Source: a virus
DNA length: 64,000 nt
Reading direction: 5' to 3' (one strand)
IMG/VR virus record: IMGVR_UViG_3300028886_001504
The notes under the pieces were generated by a model. It worked only from the letters and a program-made list of their open reading frames with translations, was not told the DNA's origin and made no database searches. Position numbers and translations under genes: made by a program. Position 1 is the first letter of the stretch, and each line of letters starts with the position of its first letter. Below, piece after piece: positions 9,939 to 27,110 of this stretch.

Positions 9939-10229
9939 TTAATAGACCCTCCTAAAAGTTTTTCTGTGTTTTGCGCAGTCTACGATATATTCTCTTCGTA
10001 GACGTATGCATTCTGCTATTGCGCCAGATTGGTCGTTGCCAAACGGCTTTGTTTCTTTTGCATAGTCTCCTGAGTTTCCACCAAATGATGCTACATCAAT
10101 AGCGAGGAAAAAACCACCATCGCCTTTCCATACTTGGTACATGCTTTTTGCTTGCTTTCTAAACTCCCTTAAGTAATAGGTGTTAAGGTGGTCATGTGTC
10201 AGTACACGTTTAATTTTCTTTTTTTCCAT
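9939..10229 (-). CDS. hypothetical protein
   Basis: 96 aa ORF. Confidence 0.35.
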   Translation of the reverse strand: MEKKKIKRVLTHDHLNTYYLREFRKQAKSMYQVWKGDGGFFLAIDVASFGGNSGDYAKETKPFGNDQSGAIAECIRLRREYIVDCAKHRKTFRRVY

Positions 10230-11079
10230 TTTCTGTATTAGTTGTCATAAGTTTAAAAAATTCTTCTTTCTCTAACGGAGTAGCATCAGTGGCTACCCAA
10301 GCATTACGTTTCACCATAATCGTAGCACCATCTGGATATTTCTTGTTTGGCTTGATTGTTACTTCGTGCTCCTGTTCCACACGATGTATGATACGGCCAT
10401 ACTTCAAGCCATTTTTATAGCAATTCCAATCAATACCTTTTTCTTCTTTCATTTTAGCAATTTGTTCATCGGTATTAAGGTTAAGTAATTCCTTGTGTGA
10501 AAGGTATGTCTGTGCAGCCTGTTGCTTAGAGTTTTTGATGCAATCCAGCTGGCGGTATTTAAACCATGCAAAAGCATCATTGTCAGAAGGAACATTCCAG
10601 CATTTGCAATCAAATTGTGCTAATTTCTGGTTCTCAATAAGATTCGTTGCCTCATTTATTTTATAAATCGTATCTATGCAATCAATTTTGAAAGTGTCGT
10701 AATCCCTACTTTTTATCTCATAAAGGATTGCAAGCTGGTTAAACTTGGCTGTAGCCAAAGATGCAATGATACTCAAAATTTTGCACATTCTGTTACTAAA
10801 GAACGGTGTGGCTTCGCCCTCATCTTTGAGAAGAAAACTGATTTCATCAGATTGCACAAACGCAATTTTAACTCCCTGTACATTTTCACACACATACTTT
10901 GCTGTTTCATTCATCATATTCACAAAGTCCATATCGAATGGCTTTCCGAAATGGTTTTTAATGAGTTTGCTAAAAGCGCGTCCATCACACATTACCAAAA
11001 CATTGGTGTTTGGTAGAAGTCTGTAATCTGTGAGTCCTCTGTAATACTCACCCTTTTCTTTTAGGTTTTGGAAAATCAT
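10210..11079 (-). CDS. tRNA-His guanylyltransferase-like (Thg1-like) 3'-5' nucleotidyltransferase
   Basis: MCDGRAFSKL...KPFD...AFVQSDEISFLLK matches the Thg1 catalytic core. Confidence 0.7.
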   Translation of the reverse strand: MIFQNLKEKGEYYRGLTDYRLLPNTNVLVMCDGRAFSKLIKNHFGKPFDMDFVNMMNETAKYVCENVQGVKIAFVQSDEISFLLKDEGEATPFFSNRMCKILSIIASLATAKFNQLAILYEIKSRDYDTFKIDCIDTIYKINEATNLIENQKLAQFDCKCWNVPSDNDAFAWFKYRQLDCIKNSKQQAAQTYLSHKELLNLNTDEQIAKMKEEKGIDWNCYKNGLKYGRIIHRVEQEHEVTIKPNKKYPDGATIMVKRNAWVATDATPLEKEEFFKLMTTNTENGKKEN

Positions 11080-11417
11080 AATCTTTCTATAATTTGTTGC
11101 AAATATACAACTATTTTCTTTACTAACAAACTTTTTTTCACTATTTTCATATTATGAAATACGAATCGCCTAAAATAATCAAAGAATACCCCATTAAAAT
11201 AGAAGATTCACTACTTTCTGGGTCTGTTGTCTCAGAAAATAGTGAAGTTACGTCTACAGGACAAGAAGTTGAAACCTATACTATTGATACCTTCGATGCT
11301 GATGGTAATAGTCTCTGGTATTAATCATGTTCATTGTCGGGATTATAGGGGCAAGTTCGTGGGTTATAGTCATAACCCTCTTGTGGCATTGGGCAATGAT
11401 AGTTATGCCAACAATCT

Positions 11418-11981
11418 TCACAGCCAGGATAGTTTTTCGACATAGTTGACACCAAATAATAAAACAAGATAAGTAGATAGATAAGCAGCCATTTCAAGAT
11501 AATAGAAATAAGACTCCTTCACGGTTCTGGTTCCTATTGCTATGACAAATGCCAACGTAAAAACTGGGATAAGTACCGCCCACATTTTAACAATAAAAAA
11601 TAACCATATCAACACACACAAAACAGCACCCCATGCGCCAATCTGGTGTATGATGTTAAGTTTCTTGCTTTCCGTATAGTTTGGGGTGAAACCCACCAAA
11701 AAAAGATGAAGTGGTGCAAAAAAACATAAGAACTGCAACGGACTATCTTTTGCTGATGTCAACATTGGTACTAACAACAATGCGGCGCTAACAATCGTCA
11801 CGAGTGACCACAAATTAATGTTTTTTAACTGTGGATGTTCTTTTGTATAACCATCCCACTTCATTCCATAAGCGGAGTAACAACTTAACACCCCATATTT
11901 TTTAATACAGATGTAGTTGAATACTGCCAGCATTATCAATGACAGAATGGTGCATATGTAAGAAGTAATAACAACAGCCAT
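11418..11981 (-). CDS. multi-pass membrane protein
   Basis: Several hydrophobic helices; ends at TGA followed 5 codons later by TAA. Confidence 0.45.
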   Translation of the reverse strand: MAVVITSYICTILSLIMLAVFNYICIKKYGVLSCYSAYGMKWDGYTKEHPQLKNINLWSLVTIVSAALLLVPMLTSAKDSPLQFLCFFAPLHLFLVGFTPNYTESKKLNIIHQIGAWGAVLCVLIWLFFIVKMWAVLIPVFTLAFVIAIGTRTVKESYFYYLEMAAYLSTYLVLLFGVNYVEKLSWL

Positions 11982-12153
11982 AACTAATCGTAATCCTCCT
12001 CTTCAAGTATTAAACACCTATAGAACTCAGGTTTATATACCTGCTTTTCAAGGAAAGCAAGTTTGTCCCATGGCGTTAGTTCATCAAATAGTTTCTCTAC
12101 GTCTGAGATTTCAACAATTTTAATACCATTAATTTCTTTCATAACTTTATATA

Positions 12154-12384
12154 TTAATCAATAATCGTCAGATAAACGCCATGTTGGTAATACAATGTAT
12201 CCGATAAATCATCCTCATTTTTGCAGATATATTTCTCCAAATACTTATTAAGGTTCGCTCTATGGATTATCATTCTACCATTAGGTATGTCAATGATGTC
12301 ATCATCAGAAACAATCTTATTTCTGAAATCAATCTCTTTTGCAAGCGTCTTAAAATCCTCAAGTGTTAGTTTCCGTGTTTTCAT
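12154..12384 (-). CDS. hypothetical protein
   Basis: 76 aa ORF. Confidence 0.4.
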   Translation of the reverse strand: MKTRKLTLEDFKTLAKEIDFRNKIVSDDDIIDIPNGRMIIHRANLNKYLEKYICKNEDDLSDTLYYQHGVYLTIID

Positions 12385-12505
12385 GATAATACTGCAAGGA
12401 AACCCACTACTTTAGTGGTGGGAGGAATTGCAGTTAATCCTTTTTTCTGTTAAACTCTTTATTTTTCACAACAAAAATACTATATTTTTTTTTGAAAAAC
12501 AAAAA

Positions 12506-12531
12506 CTTTTTGGTTTTTCAAACTATTTATA
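12506..12531 (+). promoter_or_regulatory. promoter-like 26-mer identical to 5923-5948
   Basis: Exact repeat; 18 nt upstream of the tnpB ATG. Confidence 0.5.
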
Positions 12532-12548
12532 GTGAACACAAGTGAAAA

Positions 12549-13757: not shown

Positions 13758-13761
13758 TTGA

Positions 13762-14394
13762 CTATAGTTCGGTTTTAATGTCAACTCTTTTCATTAGTTT
13801 CTTAAACAGATTAATGGTAGTGTCAATATCAAAATCAGCGCTGTGCAGTTCACCTTCATTAATGGATAAGCACCCAAGCAGCATTGCAACAGTGCCAAGT
13901 TTGAAATTATCTGGTTTGATGCCCATAGGAGGAAGCACCAGCATAGCAAGCTGACGCACATCCATAGTTACAACCTTATTGAAGAAATTTGACTTATAAA
14001 ACCCTTGTTTATATCTCTCTGGATTAGGGCTAATCTCGTGATAACGAGCAAAAAAATTGTATAGGAAATCATCATCAAACTTGGCGTTGTTGTATCCAAC
14101 TGTAATGAACTTCTCATACAAGTCACGATTGAACGGGTCAACATACTTTAATAACATTGTACAAAGTTCCTTATAGACCTCCTCCCCAGAAGGATATGCC
14201 ATAATTTGTTCCTCCGTTACGTGACTGACTTCAAGAGCCTTCTCGTCAATCAAAGCACCGTCAAACGGCTTAATATGATAGTTGAAGGTTTCTTTTAATT
14301 TACCATCAACGAAAATTTTTCCACTAAACTGATGAATGGCGTTCTTATTAACATCCGTTCCAGTTGTTTCTAAATCGTAAAAAAATAGTTTCAT
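13762..14394 (-). CDS. DnaQ-like 3'-5' exonuclease (DEDD)
   Basis: Exo I FYDLETTG, Exo II FDDDFL, Exo III HSADFD. Confidence 0.75.
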   Translation of the reverse strand: MKLFFYDLETTGTDVNKNAIHQFSGKIFVDGKLKETFNYHIKPFDGALIDEKALEVSHVTEEQIMAYPSGEEVYKELCTMLLKYVDPFNRDLYEKFITVGYNNAKFDDDFLYNFFARYHEISPNPERYKQGFYKSNFFNKVVTMDVRQLAMLVLPPMGIKPDNFKLGTVAMLLGCLSINEGELHSADFDIDTTINLFKKLMKRVDIKTEL

Positions 14395-14762: not shown

Positions 14763-15249
14763 TTTCGCTTAAAATTGTTCTTGTTATAACGTTTGCTATG
14801 CTTGTTGTCCATTCATCTCTTAAAGACAGAGAATAATCGTCCCAGTAACTAATAAAAAATTCCACGTATTTTTTTGGCGATTTTAATTCACATTTATCTA
14901 ACGGCAATTTTGTAAAAACTCTCTTAAGAACACCAAACAATGGAACAATCATATTTTCCCTTGTTATTTTTTTTGCCATGGGTGTTTCATCTGGTAATTT
15001 CCGAAGGAAAACGTAAAGCTTATTATATGCTTTACACATAGCAATCCTCTTCTCATGGCTCATATCAACATCAATATAATATCCCACTAACCAGTCTATC
15101 AAACCATCAGGTGTTGTGTGCCAAGAAACTTCCTTTTCCATACTATTATCCATAAATTTTCTTCCTTGCCTCAATAAGAAGATTATTAATTGCCTCATAA
15201 TCAGAGTGCTCTGGAAGCGTTGAGTTTTCAATTGCAATCTCCATTTCAT
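14755..15249 (-). CDS. hypothetical protein
   Basis: 164 aa ORF. Confidence 0.4.
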   Translation of the reverse strand: MKWRLQLKTQRFQSTLIMRQLIIFLLRQGRKFMDNSMEKEVSWHTTPDGLIDWLVGYYIDVDMSHEKRIAMCKAYNKLYVFLRKLPDETPMAKKITRENMIVPLFGVLKRVFTKLPLDKCELKSPKKYVEFFISYWDDYSLSLRDEWTTSIANVITRTILSENE

Positions 15250-16348
15250 GCTTTTCCTTTTCCAATTGCTCCATTACCTCATCATATTCAAATTTATGAT
15301 TACGGATGTCAAGGAGATATTGACGGTCTTCGTCCCTAACAACATTAAAACCTTTTCCTTGTGCAAGTTCTTTTGCCATTCTAACAAGACGCATGCAATG
15401 CATAACATTCTTAGAGTCATAGTTCTTGTTCAAGTTAGACTCATATCTTACAGGGTTGCGTTTTTCCTCCCACTCTTTGTATTCTTTATAATCTCTACAA
15501 TGGCAAGTATACGCATCCTTGTTGTATGTCATAAAACAAATAGGCATCTCCCCCTTTGGAATGGAACTTAAACGAACATCATTCGACTTCTCCATTTCAT
15601 CGGGATGCACAATACCGCCGTACCCAAAGAACTCTTTGTTTTTAATTCTTTCATTTGCGTCATCTCTAATTTCATCAACATCATCTGGGTCAAATATATT
15701 GGCAAGCATGAGAAATCTATCAACAGAAGGAACGTTCTCAAACTTGAAGTATGCTGCCCAATCATAATAAACGCCAAACACATCACGCATGTTAGGAATG
15801 TTTACAAGACCACAGTATTTTTGGTCAAGCCCTCTTTCCTTAAGAAACTCTTTGATGGGTTGAGAACCTTGGTTCTTAAAGGTATAACAGAAATCAAGTA
15901 TATCTTTTCTTTCCGTAATTGGATTGACGATTTTCTTGTTAAGACCACGTGCCTTTCCAATTTGGCTTACCGCATAACCGTAGAATGTTTTGAAACATTC
16001 CTTGGAAACAAACATATCTTTATTGTCAATAATGTGCTGTATAGCGGGATGCACTTCACCAATAATACAGTCTTTGGGGGCAAACAAACTTTCCAGCGCC
16101 GTTGGGTTCGCTTTTAAAAGAAGTTCAATCCATCTTCCAAACTCATAAAACACCGTATCGTTTTTCTCATCTGCAATTTGTTCCTGATAACTTGACCTAA
16201 GTCCGAAAAGCATTTCTTTTGGACAAATAAACACTCCACCCACGTCTATATCACTTGTTTCAACGTTCAAATGGTACATGTGAGAGCCACGCATATATTC
16301 ATATGCAATCCATCCGTTTTTTCGTAGTTCTTCAATTGTCATATTCAT
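15146..16348 (-). CDS. Pol-beta superfamily nucleotidyltransferase
   Basis: GS-x10-DxD motif (GSHMYHLNVETSDID). Confidence 0.5.
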   Translation of the reverse strand: MNMTIEELRKNGWIAYEYMRGSHMYHLNVETSDIDVGGVFICPKEMLFGLRSSYQEQIADEKNDTVFYEFGRWIELLLKANPTALESLFAPKDCIIGEVHPAIQHIIDNKDMFVSKECFKTFYGYAVSQIGKARGLNKKIVNPITERKDILDFCYTFKNQGSQPIKEFLKERGLDQKYCGLVNIPNMRDVFGVYYDWAAYFKFENVPSVDRFLMLANIFDPDDVDEIRDDANERIKNKEFFGYGGIVHPDEMEKSNDVRLSSIPKGEMPICFMTYNKDAYTCHCRDYKEYKEWEEKRNPVRYESNLNKNYDSKNVMHCMRLVRMAKELAQGKGFNVVRDEDRQYLLDIRNHKFEYDEVMEQLEKEKHEMEIAIENSTLPEHSDYEAINNLLIEARKKIYG

Positions 16349-16426: not shown

Positions 16427-16885
16427 CTATCCTTGTGTGTTTCCAATAAATTCACCAACAATAATATCATTGGCTTCTTTACCATCATACTGTCCAGCGT
16501 ATTTTTGACTTAGAACTTTCATAATTATACCCCTACCATTAATGGATGTAATGCCATTCTCCTTAATAATTTCTTGGATGATGTGACTGAGTTCCTTGCT
16601 GTCAAACTTCTTTGGCACATACTCTTCCAGATACTTCAACTCTGCTGCTTCTTTATCTGCCAACTCTTTTCTCCCAGCGCCATTATAGATATCAATTGAC
16701 TCTTGACGCTGTTTGATTTGTTTATTGATAATTTTGATAACATCAGCATCTGTCAGTTCATGGAACTTACCGTTTGTTTTCTCTGTTTGGATGGCTGCTT
16801 TGATGCTCCTAATTGCAGCCACTTTGTCTTCGTTGTGCTCTTTCAAAGCACTGACTAATTCTTTTTGTAGTTTTTCTTCCAACAT
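16427..16885 (-). CDS. GatB/YqeY domain protein
   Basis: Full-length similarity to the YqeY pattern (..IDIYNGAGRKELADKEAAELKYLEEYVP..). Confidence 0.65.
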   Translation of the reverse strand: MLEEKLQKELVSALKEHNEDKVAAIRSIKAAIQTEKTNGKFHELTDADVIKIINKQIKQRQESIDIYNGAGRKELADKEAAELKYLEEYVPKKFDSKELSHIIQEIIKENGITSINGRGIIMKVLSQKYAGQYDGKEANDIIVGEFIGNTQG

Positions 16886-16898
16886 GTTACTTTGTTTT

Positions 16899-17678
16899 TT
16901 AATCTGTGTATGTTACAACTCTTATATTATCGTCACTAAAGAAATCACCAGTAAGGCTCTCTGCAAATTGTTCGACTGTTTGAATAAACGCATAAAGATT
17001 CATAACATCATACAATTCATCCTCGAACATATAGTCAATGTCTTCTTCATAACATGCACACTCCGAATCATTATCTTCTTCTTTTTCTTGTGTCTTAGGA
17101 AGTTTATCATGTAAAGACGGAAGTGTGTGTTTTTTGACAAGCAAATTAACCTTTTTGTCTATGTTATTCAATTTATCCATGACAATACAGTTCTCAAATT
17201 TTTTATCAAAAAGCCTCAATAGTCGCTTTTTCCACATTTCAAATGATTTATTGTATGCTTCCCATAATTCGGCTATTGTGGCATATGACTCATTATACCA
17301 CCATTTACCACCCCAAGTTTTTTCTTTACCATATTTTTCTTTGTAATCCCTATTCTCTTTGTCAATAATTGCGTATTGTTCATTAAACCAAGCCTTTACG
17401 CCATCACTAACATCTGTTGGTAATCCTCTTTTTGCAAGAGGACTGTTAATCATCATGTTGTTAAACAAGTCCCTTACAGACCCCTGTTTCCAAAACTTAA
17501 TGAAACGGTCATAACCAACATGATTCTCATCCAACACATATGGCTTTGCTTTTGTAGTCTCAACCTTTCCATCCACGATTACGGTTGTTTCTCTATCTTT
17601 AAATGGATAAAGCGCATACAAAAGTTCCCATTTGCCTTTCTTTTGTACTTCTATGAAAAAACAAGATGTTGTGCTCAT
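16899..17678 (-). CDS. hypothetical protein
   Basis: 259 aa ORF. Confidence 0.45.
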   Translation of the reverse strand: MSTTSCFFIEVQKKGKWELLYALYPFKDRETTVIVDGKVETTKAKPYVLDENHVGYDRFIKFWKQGSVRDLFNNMMINSPLAKRGLPTDVSDGVKAWFNEQYAIIDKENRDYKEKYGKEKTWGGKWWYNESYATIAELWEAYNKSFEMWKKRLLRLFDKKFENCIVMDKLNNIDKKVNLLVKKHTLPSLHDKLPKTQEKEEDNDSECACYEEDIDYMFEDELYDVMNLYAFIQTVEQFAESLTGDFFSDDNIRVVTYTD

Positions 17679-18955: not shown

Positions 18956-20067
18956 TAGTTTATATCCATTGTAAATGTTTCAAACTCCATATAGTCTGGC
19001 CACTCAAAGCCCATAATCATGTTTTTAAAAACATCTTCGCCTATTTGACCTTCTCTTCTTTCAATGTTTTTATCCAGCGTATCTGCCTGAACATAAACAT
19101 AGTGAAATACATACCCTTTCGAAGCCAAACGCTGGTGATAATCATCACGGTACTTTTTCTTTAGGTTGATGTTGTTAATGATGATTGTTTGCTCGTTTTT
19201 TGCGGCCTCTGCCATCCTGTTATTGAAAATTTTGGTAACTCTATCCTCGTCATATGCTTTTGCTACAATCTTTTCTCCCTCTTTGCAGAGTCCAAGTTCC
19301 ACGCGGATGTCATCACGACACAACACAACAGCGTTTTTCCAATTTTCATCTACCATACGCTTTATTTTAATGTATGTGTCTTTGCCACTACCAGGAAGGC
19401 CAATCATGCAAATGCAAGTAGGCGCTCCTTTGCGCTTATTCCATATGTAATCACCATCAACAGGAATAAGACTCTTTTCGTCATAACAACCCATATCCAG
19501 TGCAATATCTCTAATTGTCTGGAGTTTCATATAGTCTATGGATTTATCTTGAAGTTGTTCGCTACCCATAATATCGGCTTCTTTAAGCGCAATCAACACT
19601 TTAAGATAGCATCGTTTAGATAAACGAACAATCTTTTCAAGTTGTTCTTTTCCTTCGAAAACCCTAAGAGGGTCCATGTGCCAACGTACCAAGGCACAAA
19701 CCTCTTCACGAAAATTAACAGGAGCGTCCCATAAAAGGTATCTTGTGATTTTTTCTCCCTCCACTTCATGGTTATATGCATGCCAGTTACCTTTCTTAAA
19801 CTCTGTGGTAACTCCCTTACCAATATCGTGGAACAATGCAGAGGTGATAAGAAGCGATTTCTCCAATTCCGTGAAGTTATGAGCGTTTTCTTCTATAAGT
19901 TTCACGGCAGCGTTGACAACGCGCTCAGTATGTACCGCAGCGTTACCTTCTTTATGCCACACAGGATTCTGTTCGCAAGTTTTCAATCTACTAAACTCAT
20001 GAACTTTCCAAACATTCTTCCAATTGACTTCGTAGGTATCGAAGTTTATTAATTTTTCCAACTTCAT
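18955..20067 (-). CDS. HD phosphohydrolase fused to P-loop polynucleotide-kinase-like domain
   Basis: HD motif LFHDIGK; Walker A GLPGSGKDT. Confidence 0.55.
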   Translation of the reverse strand: MKLEKLINFDTYEVNWKNVWKVHEFSRLKTCEQNPVWHKEGNAAVHTERVVNAAVKLIEENAHNFTELEKSLLITSALFHDIGKGVTTEFKKGNWHAYNHEVEGEKITRYLLWDAPVNFREEVCALVRWHMDPLRVFEGKEQLEKIVRLSKRCYLKVLIALKEADIMGSEQLQDKSIDYMKLQTIRDIALDMGCYDEKSLIPVDGDYIWNKRKGAPTCICMIGLPGSGKDTYIKIKRMVDENWKNAVVLCRDDIRVELGLCKEGEKIVAKAYDEDRVTKIFNNRMAEAAKNEQTIIINNINLKKKYRDDYHQRLASKGYVFHYVYVQADTLDKNIERREGQIGEDVFKNMIMGFEWPDYMEFETFTMDIN

Positions 20068-20953: not shown

Positions 20954-21310
20954 TTGATGGAAAACATGGAGATTACCACAAAACACAAAAATACAGCCTT
21001 TGGTGATGTGTGGTATGTGAACTCAACTGACGGCTCATTTAGATTTGCCATATATCGTTACGATGATGATTTTGATACGGTTTACCTGTCAAATGTCTTC
21101 GTTAGTGAGGAAAACCGTGGGAAAGGATATGGCAACTGTATTTTGGATGCAACCGACAATGTGGCGAAGGAAATGGGTGCTAAAACGATAGGTCTGAAAG
21201 TGAAGAAGGGTTCATTTGCTCATCAGTGGTATAGTAGGCACGGTTATTCATATTTAACCGATGATGAAGAAAACCCACAGTTCGTGTGGATGACAAAAAG
21301 TGTTGAATAA
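20954..21310 (+). CDS. GNAT N-acetyltransferase
   Basis: NRGKGYGNCIL acetyl-CoA motif; TAA stop followed by hairpin. Confidence 0.6.
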   Translation: MMENMEITTKHKNTAFGDVWYVNSTDGSFRFAIYRYDDDFDTVYLSNVFVSEENRGKGYGNCILDATDNVAKEMGAKTIGLKVKKGSFAHQWYSRHGYSYLTDDEENPQFVWMTKSVE

Positions 21311-21317
21311 TATAGTT

Positions 21318-21345: not shown

Positions 21346-21378
21346 TGCTGGCACATCAAAAAGGAGGATGTACAAAGA

Positions 21379-22833
21379 CTATGCTAAGTCTTCTATGTTT
21401 TCCTCCCCAGCATCCAATTCTGGTTGCTCGACTTTACCTAGGAAGGCAAAAGTTTTTAGTTTCACGGCATGAGGTATCATGTCTTCTTTTTTGAGGACTA
21501 GTCCTTCATGTGGTACTTTGTTCTGACATTCTGGGCTATCTTTTTCCATGTTGAACTTGACTTCGTTTGCGAGCTTTTCAATGAAATTCTCACACCAGTT
21601 TTCGTCTTGTTCAATGTCAGGGTACAAATCTTTTGCATATCCGTAGTAATACTCGATTACTGGGAACAAACCATGTTCTTTGCACCATTGCTGGACTTCC
21701 CTTGCAGAGAACTCGTGTACAACACCATCTGGGTTAGTGAGGGTGATACGGTATACAGCAATCTTGTAGTGTTTGTTGTAAGTGTATTCCTCACCAGGTT
21801 TAGGCAGCACACAGCCATAGTCATAGTTTTTCTGGATACCTTTACCATTTGGTAGATAACCGACTATTTCTGCGTAAATGGTCATTCCTTTAATGAGGTA
21901 AGGTTTGATGTACTCGAAAGCAATCTTCCAAACATCACCACCGCCTTCACCATAGAAACCAGCACCAGCAGTTTTGTTAACGTCTTTGTTTTTGACAACA
22001 CTTCGTGAAGCATATAGATACTCGTATCTGTTAAACTCTTCACCAGTTAGCCATTTAGCAATCTTCTCTTTGAAAGAAAGAGGGTGTTTGCAAAGAACAT
22101 AAGCAAAAATTGCTGATGTACCATGCCACTTAGAGGTTATTGATATACAGTCATCAGGCTGTATAAACATTGGAATCTTTTTCACAAGCAAAGTATCATA
22201 GTGGAAGCGGAACTGGTTGTCAATCAAGCGACTGAAATTTTTCAACTTCTTGTTACGCTTTTTCTCGTTCCTAGTGGAACCGCCACCACCACCTCCTTGC
22301 TGTGACTGGACAACATATTTCTTGTTAATCCAGAAACTCTTGCCATTATGTTCTACTTCATCGAACTCTGTTCCAACGGCACAATCATCTTCGGTGAAAT
22401 TCACGTTGGTTGAAGATACGATGAAGTTCAACAGAATTTGGAGAGGAAGCAAGAAACCTTCGGACACTTGGCCTTTCAGTTTGATTGCTTTCACTCTACC
22501 GTTGTCTTCGAACATACCAGTTTTTGTGGTATCAACATTCATTTCAGCCTTCCTATACAGGTTAGCATACGACAAGAATTGAGGGTTAATGCAGCATGAC
22601 GTTGGGAAGTAAACGAACTTGCCTGGTTGCTCATCAATTCCGACAATGATGTTGAAACCGTCAACATGTGCAACCTTTAATCTCGTTACCTCAGGATTGA
22701 TGTGTGGAGTAAACTCTTTGAGTTCCACAACTTTAGCCAAGTAGTTAACATTGGCTTTCTTACTGATGTTTAGTTTCATTTGTTTTAGTTTTTGTAATTT
22801 AATTAATTTTGTTGCACCACCACTTGCATTCAT
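21379..22833 (-). CDS. RNA ligase, Rnl2-like, with N-terminal extension and Gly6 linker
   Basis: Motif I KWHGTS (cf. KIHGTN of T4 Rnl2). Confidence 0.5.
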   Translation of the reverse strand: MNASGGATKLIKLQKLKQMKLNISKKANVNYLAKVVELKEFTPHINPEVTRLKVAHVDGFNIIVGIDEQPGKFVYFPTSCCINPQFLSYANLYRKAEMNVDTTKTGMFEDNGRVKAIKLKGQVSEGFLLPLQILLNFIVSSTNVNFTEDDCAVGTEFDEVEHNGKSFWINKKYVVQSQQGGGGGGSTRNEKKRNKKLKNFSRLIDNQFRFHYDTLLVKKIPMFIQPDDCISITSKWHGTSAIFAYVLCKHPLSFKEKIAKWLTGEEFNRYEYLYASRSVVKNKDVNKTAGAGFYGEGGGDVWKIAFEYIKPYLIKGMTIYAEIVGYLPNGKGIQKNYDYGCVLPKPGEEYTYNKHYKIAVYRITLTNPDGVVHEFSAREVQQWCKEHGLFPVIEYYYGYAKDLYPDIEQDENWCENFIEKLANEVKFNMEKDSPECQNKVPHEGLVLKKEDMIPHAVKLKTFAFLGKVEQPELDAGEENIEDLA

Positions 22834-22898
22834 CTATGCAAGAAATCTTCGAAAAGTTAAGCTAAAAAGTTTTATTCACCAAATTTTTTCACAATTTT

Positions 22899-23414
22899 TT
22901 ACTGCCATGGTTTTCTTACATAATACCCATAATGTTTATCGCCACGAAGCAATATCAACAATGGATACCTTTCAAGAACCAACTCATGGGTTAAATCATC
23001 CTGTATATGTTTTTCATACACATTTTCGTTACCATCTTGTACCCATTTATATGGAACTGCAACTAACATGTTTTTACACCTTCCCTCGGCATACTTAAGC
23101 ACTTTCTGTGCATCCTCAACCGTAAGATGTTCAATAATATCGCCAAATATAATCAAGTCATAATGGTCATATTCGAAATCAACGATATTCCTACATGACA
23201 CAGACCTATACTTCTTAAGCAATTCATAGTCGGTTATGTTAGGCTGATAGATTTCAACGGCATCCATCTTCTTATATTTACCTTCCAGTAAATCGTAGTA
23301 AGTACCTCTACCTGCTCCAACATCAAGTATTGTTGAATCCTTGTCGAAGTTGTCATAAATCCATTTTTTCACGTCTTGTTTAAACGTGCCTATAGATGCT
23401 GCCTTCGTGTCCAT
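22899..23414 (-). CDS. SAM-dependent methyltransferase
   Basis: Motif I ILDVGAGRG. Confidence 0.55.
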   Translation of the reverse strand: MDTKAASIGTFKQDVKKWIYDNFDKDSTILDVGAGRGTYYDLLEGKYKKMDAVEIYQPNITDYELLKKYRSVSCRNIVDFEYDHYDLIIFGDIIEHLTVEDAQKVLKYAEGRCKNMLVAVPYKWVQDGNENVYEKHIQDDLTHELVLERYPLLILLRGDKHYGYYVRKPWQ

Positions 23415-23633: not shown

Positions 23634-23636
23634 AAC

Positions 23637-24179
23637 TTAAATAAATTTCTCGTTTCTTGAATGATTTCTCCACCAAGGTGGGGTATTATTCTTTATATCT
23701 TCACTATTGACCATATATCCTCTTAATTCATAATCATCATCCATGATATCCTTAACAAAAGGAATGAGTTCGGATTCGTTTACGGGTCGGTCAATGATGT
23801 CCATCAAATCAGAATAACTGTATCCTGTGAAGTTGTGTACATTGACATAATATCTCGTCATATTCAACATTTTCTGATTTGGCCAGAAATGATTTTGTCG
23901 AGTACACACATCCATATGTATAAGTCTAACAATAGGTTTGCCTAGATTCTCACCAGAAACCTTACAATACCCTCCGAAGTATGTTGTAGAACTATCACCC
24001 TCAAAAGGGTTAGTTGTATGATATGATGGTAATTCTTTCAATTTGAATATTGTTCCTTTTGATTCTTTCAACCAAGATGTATATTTGTCTTTATAGACAT
24101 TATACTTGTCTATAAATTCTTGGTATGCTTGTTTTAGTTCTTCTGGCATATTACTCAAGTTTTTTACATTCTTCTTCAC
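23637..24179 (-). CDS. hypothetical protein
   Basis: 180 aa ORF. Confidence 0.4.
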   Translation of the reverse strand: MKKNVKNLSNMPEELKQAYQEFIDKYNVYKDKYTSWLKESKGTIFKLKELPSYHTTNPFEGDSSTTYFGGYCKVSGENLGKPIVRLIHMDVCTRQNHFWPNQKMLNMTRYYVNVHNFTGYSYSDLMDIIDRPVNESELIPFVKDIMDDDYELRGYMVNSEDIKNNTPPWWRNHSRNEKFI

Positions 24180-24831
24180 TATACATACTATGGAGTTTTT
24201 CGAGCCACCATTTGGTCTTAACTTTAACAGACGGACGGCGCTGGCCTTTCATTAATGTTGACCTTTTGAACACCACCCCCTCCTTAACATTAGGCAACTC
24301 AGCATCAGGGGATGTCCAATCATTATTTTGTATGATTGAAACAATTTCAGCGTCAAGCGTTCCTTTACAGATTAGTTCTGGTGTTTCTATATCATCACAT
24401 AAACAGAAAAGCGAATAATAATCTGCTGGTTCCATATATCCTTTCTTCTTAAGAAACACATCAATAAGTGCGAGGTGCATTTCATCACCTTCCTGATGTT
24501 TACCAGCAAAAGAGTTTTCACCATACCATTCGAAAACAAAGGTAATTTCCTCAACGCCTGTAAAAACATCATTCTTACCAGAATGTGCCTTAACTATGTC
24601 AGCAAGCGTCTTTGGATAATTGCTATTGTTAAACCACATTACAACAGGACCAAACTGTTCACTGTTTTCATCAACAGTAACAGTCCTACTCCCAAATGGA
24701 CCCCAAGTCTTCTTCTTACAGTTGTATGATGCAACAAAGTTCTGGCCGTCAAGTTTGTTGAACCCCCAAACCATTTCACCTTTCAGTGTTCCATCATCTT
24801 GTATTCGTGGTATGCTATCGTAATGTTTCAT
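24151..24831 (-). CDS. ligase-like nucleotidyltransferase (KxDG motif)
   Basis: FNKLDGQNF resembles ligase motif I. Confidence 0.4.
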   Translation of the reverse strand: MKHYDSIPRIQDDGTLKGEMVWGFNKLDGQNFVASYNCKKKTWGPFGSRTVTVDENSEQFGPVVMWFNNSNYPKTLADIVKAHSGKNDVFTGVEEITFVFEWYGENSFAGKHQEGDEMHLALIDVFLKKKGYMEPADYYSLFCLCDDIETPELICKGTLDAEIVSIIQNNDWTSPDAELPNVKEGVVFKRSTLMKGQRRPSVKVKTKWWLEKLHSMYSEEECKKLE

Positions 24832-25086
24832 TTATTCAAACTCAATAATGGTTTCTTTTCCAGACAAATCAATTTTCTTAACTGTCATATTATCATATTT
24901 TCCTCCTACACAAATAGGGTCTGCACCATCCCAATCAATCATCTTGGGATTCAAATGGTCACCAGTAATGTAAATTGGCCAATTGTAAGTTTCACTGGTT
25001 TTGAGGGCGTATTTCTTCTCTTCGACTTCTTCAAGCCAAAAGTTATGACCGCTTCTGTTATTCAGTTTTATTTTCTTCATCTTCAA
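24832..25086 (-). CDS. hypothetical protein
   Basis: 84 aa ORF. Confidence 0.35.
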   Translation of the reverse strand: MKMKKIKLNNRSGHNFWLEEVEEKKYALKTSETYNWPIYITGDHLNPKMIDWDGADPICVGGKYDNMTVKKIDLSGKETIIEFE

Positions 25087-25381
25087 ACATTTTAAGAATT
25101 TGCTCCTTTGTTCTTACACCTACAACACGTTCTGTATTTCCGTTATTGTTGATAATCATAACTGGAATATTCCTAATGCCAAGTGTGTTGACAAGTTCCT
25201 CGTCACAATCATCAACGTCAATCTCCCTAAGTCTGATGTTAGGGTTGGTAAGTGCTACAGCTACTAGTGTGTTCTGTAATACCCTACACGGACCACACCA
25301 TTCAGCCCCAATTTTAATTAGGCTAATTGGGTTACTAGCAACGAAATCGTTGTATTCTTCGACTGTTTTAAGTTTGTTCAT
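25058..25381 (-). CDS. thioredoxin
   Basis: WCGPC active site. Confidence 0.8.
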   Translation of the reverse strand: MNKLKTVEEYNDFVASNPISLIKIGAEWCGPCRVLQNTLVAVALTNPNIRLREIDVDDCDEELVNTLGIRNIPVMIINNNGNTERVVGVRTKEQILKMFEDEENKTE

Positions 25382-25382
25382 A

Positions 25383-26390
25383 TTAAAATCCGATACCTTT
25401 CTTATTTAAACTAGTTTTATTTCTCAATCTTCCACCACTTCTGTTAACCATCTTGTCAACGGTACTAAAAGCCTCTTCCTCTGTATGTCCAAAAACAAAG
25501 TGTAGCAGAATAAGTTCGTTAATGTGGTCAATCGTGTAACCATCGGTTCTTTCAACCCAGTGATTGATGTCGATTTTTTCAAGGTCTTCTGGAAGAACAC
25601 TATATTCAATAAACATCTTACGACTTTCCTTATTAGGAAGAGGGAATTCAACAACCCTATCGAAACGTGAAGGACGATTTACATAGCGCTCTTCAAGATA
25701 TTCAATATGATTGGTTGTGGCAATGGTTACCATGTTTCCAAGTTTAAAATTACCGTCAAGGATGTTAAGCAATAGTGTGTTGAATGAACTTGATGCCTGT
25801 GTGAAAGTATCAATGTCTTCAATAATTGCAATAATCTTCCTATCTGGTTCAATTTTCTTTATCCGTTTAACAGCATCTGGTAGCATCTCGATTTCCTGTT
25901 CGGTTGACAATGAAAAAACAATACCATCGTATAGGTCAATCAGTTCCTTACACATAAGGTTAATCAGTGAAGTTTTACCAGTACCAGGTGCTGAATAAAG
26001 AAGGTAGTTTCTTCTAAATACCCTGTTATATTTCTTGTATGTATCTTCAAGCGTCCAGAACTTTGAAATATCATTCAAAACCAAATCACTTGCCTCGTTT
26101 GGAAGTCGATAAAGTTTGTTAAGTTCAATTTCCTCTTTAACGAAATACATACCGATACTATTTGAGGTATGGATAGAATAATATCCTTTATCCAGCCTCT
26201 CAAATGTATTGGAAACAGCAATGATTTTACCATCAACATCTGACCATTGTGTGACACTTGACTTCTGTGTCTTTGGTGACAAAATATCATCAACACTCAC
26301 ATCTTCGTTACCCACAACTGGATGTTGTTCTTCACATTTTTCGATAAAACCGCGTCCTATCGCGTTATCATACGCTTTTAATTCACTCAT
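25383..26390 (-). CDS. AAA+ ATPase
   Basis: Walker A APGTGKTS; Walker B IIAIIEDID. Confidence 0.7.
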   Translation of the reverse strand: MSELKAYDNAIGRGFIEKCEEQHPVVGNEDVSVDDILSPKTQKSSVTQWSDVDGKIIAVSNTFERLDKGYYSIHTSNSIGMYFVKEEIELNKLYRLPNEASDLVLNDISKFWTLEDTYKKYNRVFRRNYLLYSAPGTGKTSLINLMCKELIDLYDGIVFSLSTEQEIEMLPDAVKRIKKIEPDRKIIAIIEDIDTFTQASSSFNTLLLNILDGNFKLGNMVTIATTNHIEYLEERYVNRPSRFDRVVEFPLPNKESRKMFIEYSVLPEDLEKIDINHWVERTDGYTIDHINELILLHFVFGHTEEEAFSTVDKMVNRSGGRLRNKTSLNKKGIGF

Positions 26391-26402
26391 ATTCTTTTAT
26401 TT

Positions 26403-27110
26403 TTAAGCTCTATATCCTTGTTTTTGCATTAATAATTCATTATATTCCAGAAACGTTTTACATCCAGCAGCGTCACGTATATCTGTAAAATACTTATATA
26501 ACTTATCAAGTGGTATCAGTCCTAAATTAGCGAGATTACCATCAAAACCAACATCCAACCTAAGTTCTTTTGTAAGTTTATTGACTACATCTATGCTACC
26601 GTGGCAATGTCCGTGTATCATGCAAGTTCCGTTTGTCCTTCTATTCCAAGTCAACATAGGGAAATGACACATCTCGACACAGAAGGTTTCATTTGGGTCA
26701 ATAAACGGATATTGGTTGTTGGTAAACTTTGCCTCCTTAATTTGGCCATACCACTCAAAATAGTGTTCCAATCCATGTAAGCTCTTATCATGGTTACCCT
26801 CAATAAAATATTTCCTACCATGTAATCTTGATAGAACTTTTTGTGTACGTTCTTTATTTCCAAGACAAAAGTCACCAAGGATGTACACAAAATCTTCACG
26901 GCGCACAGTGTCATTCCACAATTTAATCAGCCATTCATCGTGCTTTTCTATTGCTGCATTCTTATCTGCTTGTAGTTCTTCCAAAGTAATACCTGCTGCT
27001 TCCCTTCGTGCTGGGTGAAAATATAAAATGGAAGTATGGCTAAAATGTAAATCTGATGTGAAATACACTTTTAACCTTGTTCCATTTTGTTCTTTTTTAA
27101 TTTCTTCCAT
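26403..27110 (-). CDS. calcineurin-like metallophosphoesterase
   Basis: DLHFSH, GDFCLG, GNHD, GHCH motifs. Confidence 0.7.
   Translation of the reverse strand: MEEIKKEQNGTRLKVYFTSDLHFSHTSILYFHPARREAAGITLEELQADKNAAIEKHDEWLIKLWNDTVRREDFVYILGDFCLGNKERTQKVLSRLHGRKYFIEGNHDKSLHGLEHYFEWYGQIKEAKFTNNQYPFIDPNETFCVEMCHFPMLTWNRRTNGTCMIHGHCHGSIDVVNKLTKELRLDVGFDGNLANLGLIPLDKLYKYFTDIRDAAGCKTFLEYNELLMQKQGYRA

What the first reader, a model, noticed from the sequence alone, without database searches (positions are those of the whole stretch)
10210..27110. Unusually complete tRNA/RNA end-repair toolkit
Within ~17 kb: Thg1-like 3'-5' nucleotidyltransferase (5' end repair), CCA-adding enzyme (3' end repair), Rnl2-like RNA ligase, a second KxDG nucleotidyltransferase, HD+P-loop kinase, calcineurin-like phosphoesterase, SAM methyltransferase next to the ligase (Hen1-like arrangement), GatB/YqeY, a Pol-beta-type nucleotidyltransferase, and a 2H phosphoesterase at 1134-1550. 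Together they can heal and seal tRNAs cut by anticodon nucleases or other RNA-targeting defences (PrrC/RloC-type, toxin ribonucleases). A Thg1-like enzyme in a phage is itself rare.
Basis: partly seen in the sequence, partly recalled or inferred. Interest (0 to 1): 0.8.

Follow-up and report, generated by a model that had tools for sequence, protein, structure and literature searches.

The report
Megaphage tRNA/RNA end-repair gene island
A 384-kb rumen phage packs enzymes that trim, rebuild and rejoin broken tRNA/RNA ends into one 17-kb stretch; the genes are real and intact, but this kind of toolkit has already been described in jumbo phages.

Summary
The inventory is real. Profile, structure and motif checks confirm, all on the minus strand:
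- a bacterial-type Thg1-like 3'-5' polymerase
- RlaP
- YqeY
- a class II CCA-type nucleotidyltransferase
- an HD-Pnk-type end-healing enzyme
- a calcineurin-like phosphoesterase
- two ATP-dependent RNA ligases

- The 484-aa ligase is Rnl5 type (DraRnl/NgrRnl, N-terminal OB domain), not Rnl2.
- The 226-aa ligase is a nucleotidyltransferase domain only, marginally nearest Rnl2/REL1.
- The methyltransferase shows no Hen1 signal and is missing from a 95%-identical relative.
- The 2H call is weak.
- Thg1-like genes are not very rare in phages: 142 GenBank phage records and at least 573 IMG/VR contigs.

The window is 100% identical over 20.7 kb to a 384,030-bp metagenome contig whose closest named relatives are the Prevotella Lak megaphages.

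Sub-modules recur in other phages, and RNA ligase is the commonest Pfam family next to phage Thg1-like genes.

Most likely this is a counter-defence tRNA heal, rebuild and seal toolkit that may also mature the phage's own CCA-less tRNAs. Published comparative genomics already describes such toolkits (Iyer et al. 2021; Anantharaman et al. 2010), so this is a new, very complete member of a known kind.

The parts
26403..27110 (-). Calcineurin-like metallophosphoesterase (235 aa); candidate 2',3'-cyclic-phosphate/3'-phosphate end-healing enzyme
   Evidence: Metallophos 2.6e-7; phrog_547 8e-45. Motifs DxH20, GD79, GNHD105 and GHCH167 are present. Homologues sit next to Thg1-like genes in L002, L038, L087, L094 and L099. 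The RNA substrate is inferred.
25383..26390 (-). AAA ATPase (335 aa), co-transcribed; role in the toolkit unknown
   Evidence: PF00004 7e-14. Lies 12 nt from the neighbouring gene. No specific link to RNA repair was shown.
25058..25381 (-). Thioredoxin (107 aa); probably a bystander
   Evidence: PF00085 1.9e-15. A thioredoxin also lies upstream of RlaP and the small ligase in L024.
24151..24831 (-). Small ATP-dependent RNA-ligase-like protein (226 aa): a nucleotidyltransferase domain only
   Evidence: - Families: PF09414 7e-6; phrog_548 8e-17, covering profile positions 3-241 of 341.
- Motifs: K26LDG, E184GVVFK, K203VK.
- Structure: AF2 pLDDT 85; Foldseek top hits are REL1 1XDN and T4 Rnl2 2HVR/1S68 at about 1e-6, TM 0.6.
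- Homologues: 533, and all 120 listed are 224-227 aa.
- GenBank phages: only Lak, three >480-kb uncultured phages and XacN1.
22899..23414 (-). Small class I SAM methyltransferase (171 aa); target unknown and not Hen1-like by sequence
   Evidence: Methyltransf_23 5.6e-6, below the cut-off. No Hen1 match. Absent from L023.
21379..22833 (-). Rnl5-type (DraRnl/NgrRnl-like) RNA ligase (484 aa): N-terminal OB domain plus nucleotidyltransferase domain; predicted to seal nicks
   Evidence: - Families: phrog_968 1e-38; TIGR02306 RNA_lig_DRB0094 1.9e-10 on the OB domain.
- Structure: AF2 pLDDT 75; Foldseek top 13 hits are Naegleria RNA ligase at about 1e-11, against 1e-5 to 1e-4 for REL1, Rnl3 and Rnl2.
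- Motifs: K235WHG, E443GLVLK, K458LK.
18955..20067 (-). HD-Pnk-type bifunctional end-healing enzyme (370 aa): N-terminal HD phosphoesterase plus C-terminal 5'-OH polynucleotide kinase
   Evidence: - Domains: HD 2.7e-11 and AAA_33 4.7e-10.
- Kinase: best PDB match Pnkp1 4XRP 3.5e-6; phrog_505 polynucleotide kinase 9e-21.
- Motifs: H79D80 and P-loop GLPGSGKDT.
- The architecture is that of Runella HD-Pnk (PMC6097658).
17675..18955 (-). Class II tRNA nucleotidyltransferase (CCA-adding type, 426 aa)
   Evidence: PolyA_pol 2.5e-17, PolyA_pol_RNAbd 1.4e-14 and tRNA_NucTran2_2 1.5e-5. NF009814 CCA tRNA nucleotidyltransferase 8e-43; phrog_2244 8e-50. Motifs GGxxRD, DxD, RRD and DDPLR are present.
16899..17678 (-). 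Unknown 259-aa protein, translationally coupled between YqeY and the CCA enzyme
   Evidence: Its start overlaps the CCA gene's stop. No Pfam or PHROG match. Only 5 homologous clusters in 5.8 billion proteins.
16427..16885 (-). YqeY/GatB-tail-like protein (152 aa); candidate tRNA-binding accessory factor
   Evidence: PF09424 1.8e-38; phrog_1460 4e-26. YqeY lies near Thg1-like genes in 6 of 80 other viral loci. The tRNA-binding role is inferred from the GatB tail domain.
15146..16348 (-). RlaP (RNA-ligase-associated Pol-beta nucleotidyltransferase, 400 aa); adds 1-2 nucleotides to damaged RNA 3'-OH ends
   Evidence: PF10127 3.3e-17; phrog_388 5e-50; GS...DID motif. The family's activity is shown in PMC12776372. 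In L024 it lies one gene from the small ligase.
13762..14394 (-). DEDD 3'-5' exonuclease (210 aa); whether it acts on RNA or DNA is unresolved
   Evidence: RNase_T 3e-11, but phrog_192 'DNA polymerase exonuclease subunit' 1.6e-28. NCBIfam hits are split between PolC/epsilon and RNase T.
10210..11079 (-). Thg1-like protein (bacterial TLP type, 289 aa); template-dependent 3'-5' polymerase that rebuilds tRNA 5' ends
   Evidence: PF04446 1.9e-27; phrog_4717 9e-51. PDB 4KGK BtTLP 2.4e-25, against 5e-9 to 9e-5 for the other solved Thg1/TLP structures. D32 and D78E79 are conserved.
1134..1571 (-). Weak 2H phosphoesterase candidate (145 aa), 9 kb outside the island
   Evidence: tRNA_lig_CPD 1.6e-4, 21.7 bits against a cut-off of 23. 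HGTT45 and HITL101 motifs are present. The only PHROG match is of unknown function.
30409..32130 (-). Ro-like/vWA 'RNA-binding protein' (573 aa), 3.3 kb beyond the island; possible RNA-repair scaffold
   Evidence: DUF7788 8e-20 and DUF2828 5.5e-5; phrog_850 'RNA-binding protein' 3e-58. Relatives are annotated 'Ro-like RNA binding protein' or 'vWFA' in 671 phage records.
60991..62137 (-). Three phage tRNA genes (Ser-GCT, Cys-GCA, Thr-TGT) without an encoded 3' CCA; likely substrates of the CCA enzyme
   Evidence: ARAGORN and Rfam. Reading the sequence shows cta, ctt and caa after the discriminator base, and perfect 7-bp acceptor stems.

Best explanation
The island is a phage-encoded tRNA/RNA end-repair toolkit that keeps translation running when host nucleases attack tRNAs.

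Proposed sequence of events:
1. A metal-independent ribonuclease leaves 2',3'-cyclic phosphate and 5'-OH ends.
2. The HD domain of HD-Pnk and/or the metallophosphoesterase (and perhaps the weak 2H protein) open and remove the 3' phosphate.
3. The P-loop kinase domain phosphorylates the 5'-OH.
4. If nucleotides were lost, RlaP adds one or two to the 3'-OH. The CCA enzyme rebuilds the 3' terminus. The Thg1-like protein rebuilds missing 5' nucleotides of a stem in the 3'-5' direction, using the opposite strand as template.
5. The Rnl5-type ligase seals the resulting 3'-OH/5'-PO4 nick in the structured, duplex-like tRNA.
6. The small domain-only ligase is a second sealing activity that probably needs a partner.
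7. YqeY and the nearby Ro-like protein would act as tRNA/RNA-binding helpers.

Shown here: family membership, intact catalytic motifs, co-orientation with tight packing, and recurrence of sub-modules in other phages.

Inferred: the substrates, the order of steps, and that the trigger is host defence.
For: - Family and motif evidence for each enzyme.
- The genes form two tight co-directional blocks, 27110 to 21379 and 20861 to 13762, with gaps or overlaps of a few bases.
- Recurrence in relatives:
  - L002 has Metallophos, a 139-aa ORF, Thg1, two small ORFs, HD-kinase and the OB-ligase within 5.5 kb.
  - L024 has RlaP, a 172-aa ORF, the small ligase, three small ORFs and Thg1 within 4 kb.
  - Lak-C1 has Thg1, the OB-ligase and Metallophos within 7.5 kb.
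- Eight of 18 ligase-seeded loci carry Thg1 within 10 kb.
- Among 141 immediate neighbours of Thg1-like genes in 47 non-redundant viral loci, RNA_ligase is the commonest Pfam family (8). PHA02142 OB (5), Metallophos (3), YqeY (2), RlaP (2), HD (2), PolyA_pol (1) and HAD_PNKP (1) are also present.
- The biochemistry of the families is known. RlaP adds 1-2 NMP to damaged RNA 3' ends (PMC12776372). Runella HD-Pnk is a 2',3'-phosphoesterase plus 5'-OH kinase (PMC6097658). TLPs repair 5'-truncated tRNAs (PMC3061083 and PMC4820378 abstracts).
- The same logic is published for jumbo phages (PMC7824862).
Against: - There is no experimental data for any of these proteins.
- The host and its nucleases are unknown.
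- The metallophosphoesterase, DEDD exonuclease, methyltransferase, AAA ATPase, thioredoxin and GNAT have no demonstrated RNA link. The DEDD exonuclease matches DNA-polymerase proofreading subunits better.
- The Runella ligase linked to HD-Pnk did not ligate standard substrates (PMC6097658).
- The island is interrupted by a TnpB gene and about 9 ORFs of unknown function. The methyltransferase is dispensable in a near-identical relative.
- All three phage tRNA genes lack CCA, so the CCA enzyme has an obvious housekeeping role.
Confidence: 0.62

Rival explanations
1. Housekeeping rather than counter-defence. The enzymes mature and quality-control the megaphage's own large tRNA set: CCA addition to CCA-less tRNA genes, 5'-end proofreading or G-1 addition by the Thg1-like protein, and 3' trimming by the DEDD exonuclease. 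This could include tRNAs needed to read in-frame TGA codons.
For: - All three tRNA genes in the window lack an encoded CCA.
- Huge phages encode many tRNAs and CCA-adding enzymes as part of a translation takeover (PMC7162821).
- CCA and YqeY are the commonest toolkit proteins within 10 kb of Thg1-like genes in other phages.
- Several genes in the window carry in-frame TGA codons that read as Trp.
Against: - HD-Pnk, a 3'-phosphoesterase and two ATP-dependent ligases have no role in normal bacterial tRNA maturation.
- The three tRNAs have perfect acceptor stems and need no 5' editing.
- RNA ligase is the top neighbour of phage Thg1-like genes.
- No tRNA-His or suppressor tRNA could be examined, because the rest of the contig was not retrievable.
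Confidence: 0.2
2. A loose collection of nucleic-acid end-processing genes in an auxiliary-gene region, some acting on DNA. Examples would be healing and sealing of nicked or ribonucleotide-containing phage DNA, and replication proofreading. On this view the genes do not form one pathway.
For: - The Runella enzyme with the same HD-Pnk architecture is described as a DNA/RNA end-healing enzyme (title cited in PMC6097658).
- The DEDD exonuclease best matches DNA polymerase exonuclease subunits.
- SSB is the third commonest neighbour of phage Thg1-like genes.
- The island contains unrelated genes: thioredoxin, AAA ATPase, GNAT and TnpB.
- Gene order is shuffled between relatives.
Against: - Thg1-like, CCA-type, RlaP and YqeY proteins are RNA- or tRNA-specific families.
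- The same partners recur next to Thg1-like genes in distant phages.
- A separate NAD-dependent DNA ligase is encoded at 51271-53295.
Confidence: 0.1

Closest known systems
Jumbo-phage RNA repair complements described by Iyer, Anantharaman, Krishnan, Burroughs and Aravind 2021 (PMC7824862, section 3.4.9)
   Same: The same parts list: ATP-dependent RNA ligases, a polynucleotide kinase, phosphoesterases including 2H, RlaP, a CCA-adding enzyme, sporadic Thg1, a Rot/TROVE protein and phage tRNAs. The same proposed counter-defence role. Lak-B8, a relative of this phage, was in their set.
   Different: - That paper names RtcB, Rnl1 and Rnl2 as the ligases and HAD (PKN-HAD) as the main phosphatase. 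Here the ligases are Rnl5 type plus a domain-only ligase, and healing is by HD-Pnk plus a calcineurin-type esterase.
- YqeY is not mentioned there (0 occurrences).
- Here nearly all parts sit in one 17-kb island.
Bacteriophage T4 Pnkp + Rnl1 (+ Rnl2, NrdC.11 RlaP) against the PrrC anticodon nuclease
   Same: Heal-and-seal logic: remove the 2',3'-cyclic phosphate, phosphorylate the 5'-OH and ligate. T4 also encodes an RlaP homologue (PMC12776372).
   Different: - T4 uses a kinase-HAD Pnkp and Rnl1. No similarity to a T4-type Pnkp phosphatase was found here; the phosphoesterases are HD and calcineurin type.
- There is no Rnl1-type ligase here.
- T4 has no Thg1-like protein or CCA enzyme (own knowledge).
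Runella slithyformis HD-Pnk / ligase / Tpt1 / MTase-HIT cluster (Munir and Shuman 2017; PMC6097658)
   Same: The same HD-then-kinase fusion, genetically linked to an ATP-dependent ligase. A methyltransferase is in the neighbourhood.
   Different: No Tpt1 or HIT domain was found here. The ligase type was not compared directly. The Runella cluster is bacterial and has no Thg1-like, CCA or RlaP genes.
Bacterial Pnkp-Hen1 and Pnkp1-Rnl-Hen1 repair complexes (PMC4411300)
   Same: The kinase domain is most similar to Pnkp1 (4XRP). There is a calcineurin-type esterase, a stand-alone ligase and an adjacent methyltransferase.
   Different: The methyltransferase has no detectable Hen1 similarity and no ligase-activating N-terminal half. 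The kinase is fused to HD rather than to the metallophosphoesterase.
Bacterial Thg1-like / polynucleotide kinase / Macro / RNA ligase neighbourhoods (Anantharaman, Iyer and Aravind 2010, PMC2904730)
   Same: Thg1-like genes are linked to a polynucleotide kinase and an RNA ligase. A tRNA repair role was proposed, and a phage copy (201phi2-1) had already been noted.
   Different: The setting here is a phage. The kinase is the HD-Pnk fusion. No Macro domain was seen in the island.

Membership tests
Thg1 / Thg1-like protein (TLP) | Thg1 catalytic domain above the curated threshold | tested here: met
   PF04446 96.2 bits against a cut-off of 29.2; phrog_4717 9e-51.
Thg1 / Thg1-like protein (TLP) | Palm-domain catalytic carboxylates (Asp of the DG motif, Asp-Glu of the SDE motif) | tested here: met
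   D32 and D78E79 align with BtTLP and are invariant in 6 phage homologues.
Thg1 / Thg1-like protein (TLP) | Bacterial TLP clade rather than eukaryotic tRNA-His-specific Thg1 | tested here: met
   4KGK (B. thuringiensis TLP) 2.4e-25, against 5e-9 to 9e-5 for the other solved Thg1/TLP entries.
Thg1 / Thg1-like protein (TLP) | Template-dependent 3'-5' nucleotide addition to 5'-truncated tRNA | not testable with these tools
   Needs an enzyme assay.
Rnl5 (DraRnl/NgrRnl) RNA ligase, tested on the 484-aa protein | N-terminal OB domain followed by a nucleotidyltransferase domain, with no C-terminal appended domain | tested here: met
   PHA02142 OB at residues 47-131 and RNA_ligase at 232-453. TIGR02306 DRB0094 1.9e-10 on residues 36-134. 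Foldseek top 13 hits are NgrRnl at about 1e-11 over the full length.
Rnl5 (DraRnl/NgrRnl) RNA ligase, tested on the 484-aa protein | Covalent nucleotidyltransferase motifs I, IV and V with the lysine nucleophile | tested here: met
   K235WHG, E443GLVLK and K458LK, invariant in 27 homologues.
Rnl5 (DraRnl/NgrRnl) RNA ligase, tested on the 484-aa protein | Scores above the curated family thresholds | tested here: inconclusive
   Pfam RNA_ligase 22.4 and PHA02142 22.1 bits, both below 27. TIGR02306 40 bits, below 151. The protein is about 140 aa longer than NgrRnl and has a low-confidence Gly-rich linker.
Rnl5 (DraRnl/NgrRnl) RNA ligase, tested on the 484-aa protein | Seals 3'-OH/5'-PO4 nicks in duplex RNA | not testable with these tools
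   Needs an enzyme assay.
Rnl2 (T4 Rnl2 / REL1), tested on the 226-aa protein | Nucleotidyltransferase domain with motifs I, III, IV and V | tested here: met
   K26LDG, E184GVVFK and K203VK. Foldseek hits REL1, T4 Rnl2 and 1S68 at about 1e-6, TM 0.6.
Rnl2 (T4 Rnl2 / REL1), tested on the 226-aa protein | Family-specific C-terminal domain needed for nick recognition | tested here: not met
   The protein ends 21 residues after motif V. All 120 listed homologues (of 533) are 224-227 aa. phrog_548 is matched only over positions 3-241 of 341.
Rnl2 (T4 Rnl2 / REL1), tested on the 226-aa protein | Clearly closer to Rnl2 than to other RNA ligase families | tested here: inconclusive
   Rnl2/REL1 at 1.1-1.6e-6, against Rnl1 at 4.5e-6 and Rnl5 at 5.7e-6. 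No PDB hit by sequence or by profile.
HD-Pnk (Runella type) | N-terminal HD phosphoesterase fused to a C-terminal P-loop polynucleotide kinase | tested here: met
   HD at residues 46-165 and AAA_33 at 219-355. Pnkp1 4XRP 3.5e-6; phrog_505 PNK 9e-21. HD dyad and Walker A motif present.
HD-Pnk (Runella type) | Genetic linkage to an ATP-dependent ligase | tested here: met
   Directly upstream of the OB-ligase in L002. In the window it lies 1.3 kb from the ligase.
HD-Pnk (Runella type) | Direct sequence similarity to Runella HD-Pnk, and its activities | not tested
The activities need assays.
Class II CCA-adding enzyme | Head, neck/RNA-binding and tRNA_NucTran2 domains with motifs A, B and D | tested here: met
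   (GGxxRD, D44xD46, RRD124, DDPLR169).
Class II CCA-adding enzyme | Discrimination from poly(A) polymerase and from A-adding or CC-adding enzymes | tested here: inconclusive
   The best NCBIfam model is CCA tRNA nucleotidyltransferase (8e-43), but it scores below its cut-off, and PcnB follows at 1e-35.
RlaP | PF10127 domain above threshold with the Pol-beta GS...DxD motif | tested here: met
   63.4 bits against a cut-off of 23. G20S...D37ID39.
RlaP | Association with RNA ligase genes | tested here: met
   One gene from the small ligase in L024. Inside the island in the window.
Hen1 RNA 3'-terminal 2'-O-methyltransferase | Sequence similarity to the Hen1 methyltransferase domain | tested here: not met
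   No Hen1 chain among PDB hits at E<=1. No Hen1 model among NCBIfam hits at E<=1.
Hen1 RNA 3'-terminal 2'-O-methyltransferase | N-terminal ligase-activating half | tested here: not met
   The protein is 171 aa, which is the methyltransferase core only.
Hen1 RNA 3'-terminal 2'-O-methyltransferase | Conserved partnership with the ligase | tested here: not met
   L023, 94-96% identical in DNA, has the small ligase and the OB-ligase but no methyltransferase gene between them.
2H phosphoesterase | Two H-x-T/S-x motifs and a profile match | tested here: inconclusive
   HGTT45 and HITL101 are present. tRNA_lig_CPD scores 21.7 bits, below the cut-off of 23, and covers only one motif region.

The most novel reading that the evidence does not exclude
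The recurrent core of Thg1-like polymerase, Rnl5-type nick-sealing ligase, HD-Pnk and metallophosphoesterase may be a dedicated reverse gap-filling pathway for RNA stems.

Proposed steps:
1. A nuclease removes nucleotides from one strand of a tRNA stem.
2. The ends are healed.
3. The Thg1-like enzyme refills the gap in the 3'-5' direction, using the opposite strand as template.
4. The Rnl5-type ligase, which prefers nicks in duplex RNA, closes the final nick.

This would be an RNA analogue of short-patch excision repair running backwards. The megaphage-restricted domain-only ligase could be a second, partner-dependent sealing enzyme in the same pathway.
Probability: 0.2. Interest if true: 0.7.

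Novelty: new member of a known kind. Interest (0 to 1): 0.4.

Why it matters
This is a compact, intact and nearly complete natural set of RNA end-repair enzymes from an uncultured 384-kb rumen megaphage.

- **Material for biochemistry.** It gives ready candidates for reconstituting tRNA repair. These include three activities that have not been studied in phages: a Thg1-like protein, HD-Pnk and an Rnl5-type ligase.
- **A testable coupling.** The link between Thg1-like genes and RNA ligases, quantified here across viral contigs, makes a coupled 5'-rebuild-and-seal reaction directly testable.
- **What it says about the hosts.** It suggests that gut and rumen Bacteroidota-type hosts deploy several kinds of tRNA-cleaving defences.
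- **No new principle.** The concept is already in the comparative-genomics literature.

Tried and rejected
- **DNA similarity.** Megablast of the 16.9-kb region against GenBank phages found nothing.
- **PDB sequence searches of the ligases.** phmmer with both ligases, and profile searches with alignments A1 and A3, gave no meaningful hits. Classification needed AlphaFold plus Foldseek.
- **Hen1 hypothesis.** Tested and rejected.
- **Split Rnl2 idea.** I considered that the 170-180-aa ORF downstream of the small ligase (23637-24179) is a split Rnl2 C-domain. It has no family hit and is not conserved in L024, where a 98-aa ORF follows the ligase. The idea is unsupported.
- **The 259-aa ORF.** It proved to be an ORFan with only 5 homologous clusters.
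- **Walking along the contig.** An attempt to walk beyond window end 64000, to look for tRNA-His or a suppressor tRNA, returned only 3-kb contigs.
- **Literature not reached.** Burroughs and Aravind 2016 (NAR) is not held in the library. A search for DUF2828/TROVE was uninformative.
- **Non-coding RNA.** Rfam at gathering thresholds found only the three tRNAs. No Y RNA lies near the Ro-like gene.
- **AAA and thioredoxin hits near Thg1-like genes in other loci.** I judged these to be generic similarity. The Pfam census shows FtsH-like AAA + M41 proteins there.

Full report
**1. What the sequence is**

The window has about 36% G+C and its genes lie almost all on the minus strand. The stretches upstream of the start codons printed mostly lack an obvious Shine-Dalgarno sequence.

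The window is 100% identical over 20,681 bp to part of a 384,030-bp metagenome contig, ENA ERZ27256887 k141_2852081. The same genes occur on other metagenome contigs. From my own knowledge of the accession names (SHIW14, AUXO01) I take some of these to be sheep-rumen samples; this was not verified.

Megablast against GenBank phages finds nothing. At protein level the best named relatives are the about 540-kb Prevotella Lak megaphages:
- Thg1-like protein, 50% identity
- small ligase, 58-60%
- large ligase, 52-54%

So this is a jumbo phage distantly related to Lak.

**2. Checking the inventory**

The key catalytic motifs of each are intact.

*Thg1-like protein (10210-11079).*
- It scores 96 bits on PF04446.
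- Its best solved relative is the Bacillus thuringiensis Thg1-like protein (4KGK, 2.4e-25). The other solved Thg1/TLP structures score only 5e-9 to 9e-5.
- It is therefore a bacterial-type TLP, the class known for template-dependent repair of 5'-truncated tRNAs (abstracts).

*RlaP and YqeY.* Both are clear matches.

*The 426-aa class II nucleotidyltransferase.*
- It has the head, RNA-binding and tRNA_NucTran2 domains, and motifs GGxxRD, DxD, RRD and DDPLR.
- Its best NCBIfam model is CCA tRNA nucleotidyltransferase.
- A poly(A) polymerase or a partial CCA activity cannot be excluded by profiles alone.

*The 370-aa HD + P-loop protein.*
- It has the architecture of Runella HD-Pnk.
- Its kinase domain is most similar to Pnkp1 of the Pnkp1-Rnl-Hen1 repair complex (4XRP).
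- This fusion is uncommon in deposited phages. Only 15 records have it, mostly Campylobacter phages, where it is annotated as poly(A) polymerase or AAA ATPase.

**3. The two ligases**

*The 484-aa protein.*
- It has an N-terminal OB domain that matches the DraRnl model TIGR02306 (1.9e-10).
- Its AlphaFold model (pLDDT 75) matches Naegleria gruberi RNA ligase at about 1e-11. That is five to seven orders of magnitude better than REL1, Rnl3, Rnl2 or Rnl1.
- It is an Rnl5-type ligase, not Rnl2-like, and its motif I is KWHG.
- The family is common in phages: 378 records, mostly mycobacteriophage 'RNA ligase'.

*The 226-aa protein.*
- It is a bare nucleotidyltransferase domain with motifs K26LDG, EGVVFK and KVK.
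- Its model (pLDDT 85) is marginally closest to REL1 and T4 Rnl2 (about 1e-6, TM 0.6), but Rnl1 and Rnl5 are close behind.
- It ends 21 residues after motif V. All 120 listed homologues (of 533) are 224-227 aa.
- Among deposited phages it occurs only in Lak, three uncultured phages of more than 480 kb, and XacN1.
- From established work on T4 Rnl2, the isolated N-terminal domain cannot carry out nick adenylylation. This is my own knowledge. I therefore infer that the protein needs a partner.

**4. Claims that do not hold**

- *Hen1-like arrangement.* The 171-aa methyltransferase matches only generic class I models, all below threshold. It shows no Hen1 similarity in the PDB or in NCBIfam. It is absent from L023, a relative 94-96% identical in DNA. 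The resemblance to Hen1 is positional only.
- *2H protein.* The candidate at 1134-1571 is sub-threshold, although two HxT motifs are visible.
- *Rarity of Thg1 in phages.* Thg1-like genes are sporadic rather than very rare. There are 142 GenBank phage records and at least 573 IMG/VR contigs.

**5. Is the clustering meaningful?**

Within the window, nine of the 11 RNA-end genes lie among 24 of 84 ORFs. A post-hoc test gives P about 1e-4.

More telling, sub-modules recur in diverged phages with the gene order shuffled:
- L002 has Metallophos, Thg1, HD-kinase and the OB-ligase in 5.5 kb.
- L024, a 272-kb contig, has RlaP, the small ligase and Thg1 in 4 kb.
- Lak-C1 has Thg1, the OB-ligase and Metallophos in 7.5 kb.
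- Eight of 18 ligase-seeded loci carry Thg1 within 10 kb.

I also took an unbiased Pfam census of the two genes on each side of Thg1-like genes. It covered 47 non-redundant viral loci and 141 proteins. RNA_ligase was the most frequent family (8), and five of those carried the Rnl5-type OB domain. Metallophos, YqeY, RlaP, HD, PolyA_pol and HAD_PNKP were also present.

**6. Mechanism**

The best-supported reading is a tRNA/RNA heal, rebuild and seal toolkit:
- *Healing.* The HD domain and the metallophosphoesterase (perhaps with the 2H protein) clear 2',3'-cyclic or 3' phosphates. The kinase domain phosphorylates the 5'-OH.
- *Rebuilding.* RlaP restores one or two 3' nucleotides (activity shown for the family). 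The CCA enzyme restores the 3' terminus. The TLP restores 5' nucleotides.
- *Sealing.* The Rnl5-type ligase seals nicks in the folded tRNA.
- *Helpers.* YqeY and the Ro-like protein at 30409-32130 are plausible RNA-binding helpers.

Family membership, motif integrity and gene linkage are shown here. The substrates, the order of steps and the defensive trigger are inferred.

The main rival is housekeeping for the phage's own tRNAs. It has real support for the CCA enzyme, because all three tRNA genes in the window lack an encoded CCA. It does not explain the kinase, the phosphoesterases or the ligases.

**7. Comparison with the literature**

- Iyer et al. 2021 (PMC7824862) describe exactly this parts list in jumbo phages, including RlaP, CCA-adding enzymes and sporadic Thg1. 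Their data set included Lak-B8.
- Anantharaman et al. 2010 (PMC2904730) reported Thg1 / polynucleotide kinase / RNA ligase neighbourhoods and a phage Thg1.
- Al-Shayeb et al. 2020 (PMC7162821) noted genes for ligating tRNAs cleaved by host defences in huge phages.

The finding is therefore a new and unusually compact member of a known kind.

What differs in detail:
- healing is by HD-Pnk plus a calcineurin-type esterase, not a T4-type kinase-HAD Pnkp
- an Rnl5-type ligase and a domain-only ligase take the place of Rnl1 and Rnl2
- YqeY is included

**8. Verdict**

Interest is moderate at 0.4.

The most novel reading still open is a coupled pathway in which the TLP fills a gap in an RNA stem in the reverse direction and the Rnl5-type ligase seals the nick. 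I give that a probability of about 0.2.

Noticed in passing
window 61290-62099 (-), 55747-56472 (-), 5972-7192 (+), 43151-44089 (-): Four ORFs are unbroken only if TGA is read as a sense codon.
- The first is an HNH endonuclease-like gene between tRNA-Thr and tRNA-Cys. It has 4 in-frame TGA codons and no TGG, in contexts such as GVDWKDWLE.
- The second is another HNH-like gene.
- The third is a DUF7487 protein. Its Pfam match (1.2e-24) covers profile positions 1-214 of 220, over a region that holds most of its 7 in-frame TGA codons.
- The fourth has a Cys- and Leu-rich repeat that looks BspA-like by eye; Pfam found no family.

The rest of the window reads cleanly in the standard code. This could be partial TGA-to-Trp recoding, or mobile genes imported from an element that uses code 4. 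No suppressor tRNA lies in the window.
   Followed up: partly
window 12549-13757 (+): A TnpB/IS605 OrfB (Cas12f-like) gene sits on the opposite strand inside the island, between the DEDD exonuclease and the small genes upstream of Thg1. It is present in all three independent contigs that carry this Thg1. Its omega RNA and element ends were not looked for.
   Followed up: partly
window 30409-32130 (-): A G+C-rich island (45% against about 36%) coincides with a 573-aa DUF2828/DUF7788 protein. Relatives are annotated 'Ro-like RNA binding protein' or 'vWFA' in 671 phage records. Rfam finds no Y RNA nearby.
   Followed up: partly
window 60991-62137 (-): The three tRNA genes (Ser-GCT, Cys-GCA, Thr-TGT) do not encode the 3' CCA. 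All have perfect 7-bp acceptor stems.
   Followed up: yes
window 36390-42403 (-); also L024 1-4748: An NAD+ salvage and nucleotide block: NAD synthase, NT5C, NAMPT/NAPRTase and a phosphoribosyltransferase. NAPRTase, NT5C and NAD synthase also lie upstream of the RlaP / small ligase / Thg1 cluster in the 272-kb relative.
   Followed up: no
window 20954-21310 (+): A small GNAT acetyltransferase on the opposite strand, between the HD-Pnk block and the Rnl5-type ligase (PF13508 4e-8). Its role is unknown.
   Followed up: no
window 56538-57776 (-): An SPFH/Band-7 protein (9.6e-11) lies 3 kb from the tRNA genes. From memory, Band-7 modules have been proposed as RNA-repair scaffolds; I could not check this here.
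   Followed up: no
L002 11546-12544; L023 4328-5401: In two relatives a LAGLIDADG homing-endonuclease gene lies immediately downstream of the Rnl5-type ligase. The window has none there.
   Followed up: no
window 27999-29018 (-): A strong DUF1848 match (2.9e-88) of unknown function, three genes upstream of the metallophosphoesterase.
   Followed up: no
window 44870-46759 (-); L002 3913-5754: A phage-encoded Hsp70/DnaK (2e-252). In relative L002 an Hsp70 gene lies directly upstream of the Metallophos-Thg1 module.
   Followed up: no
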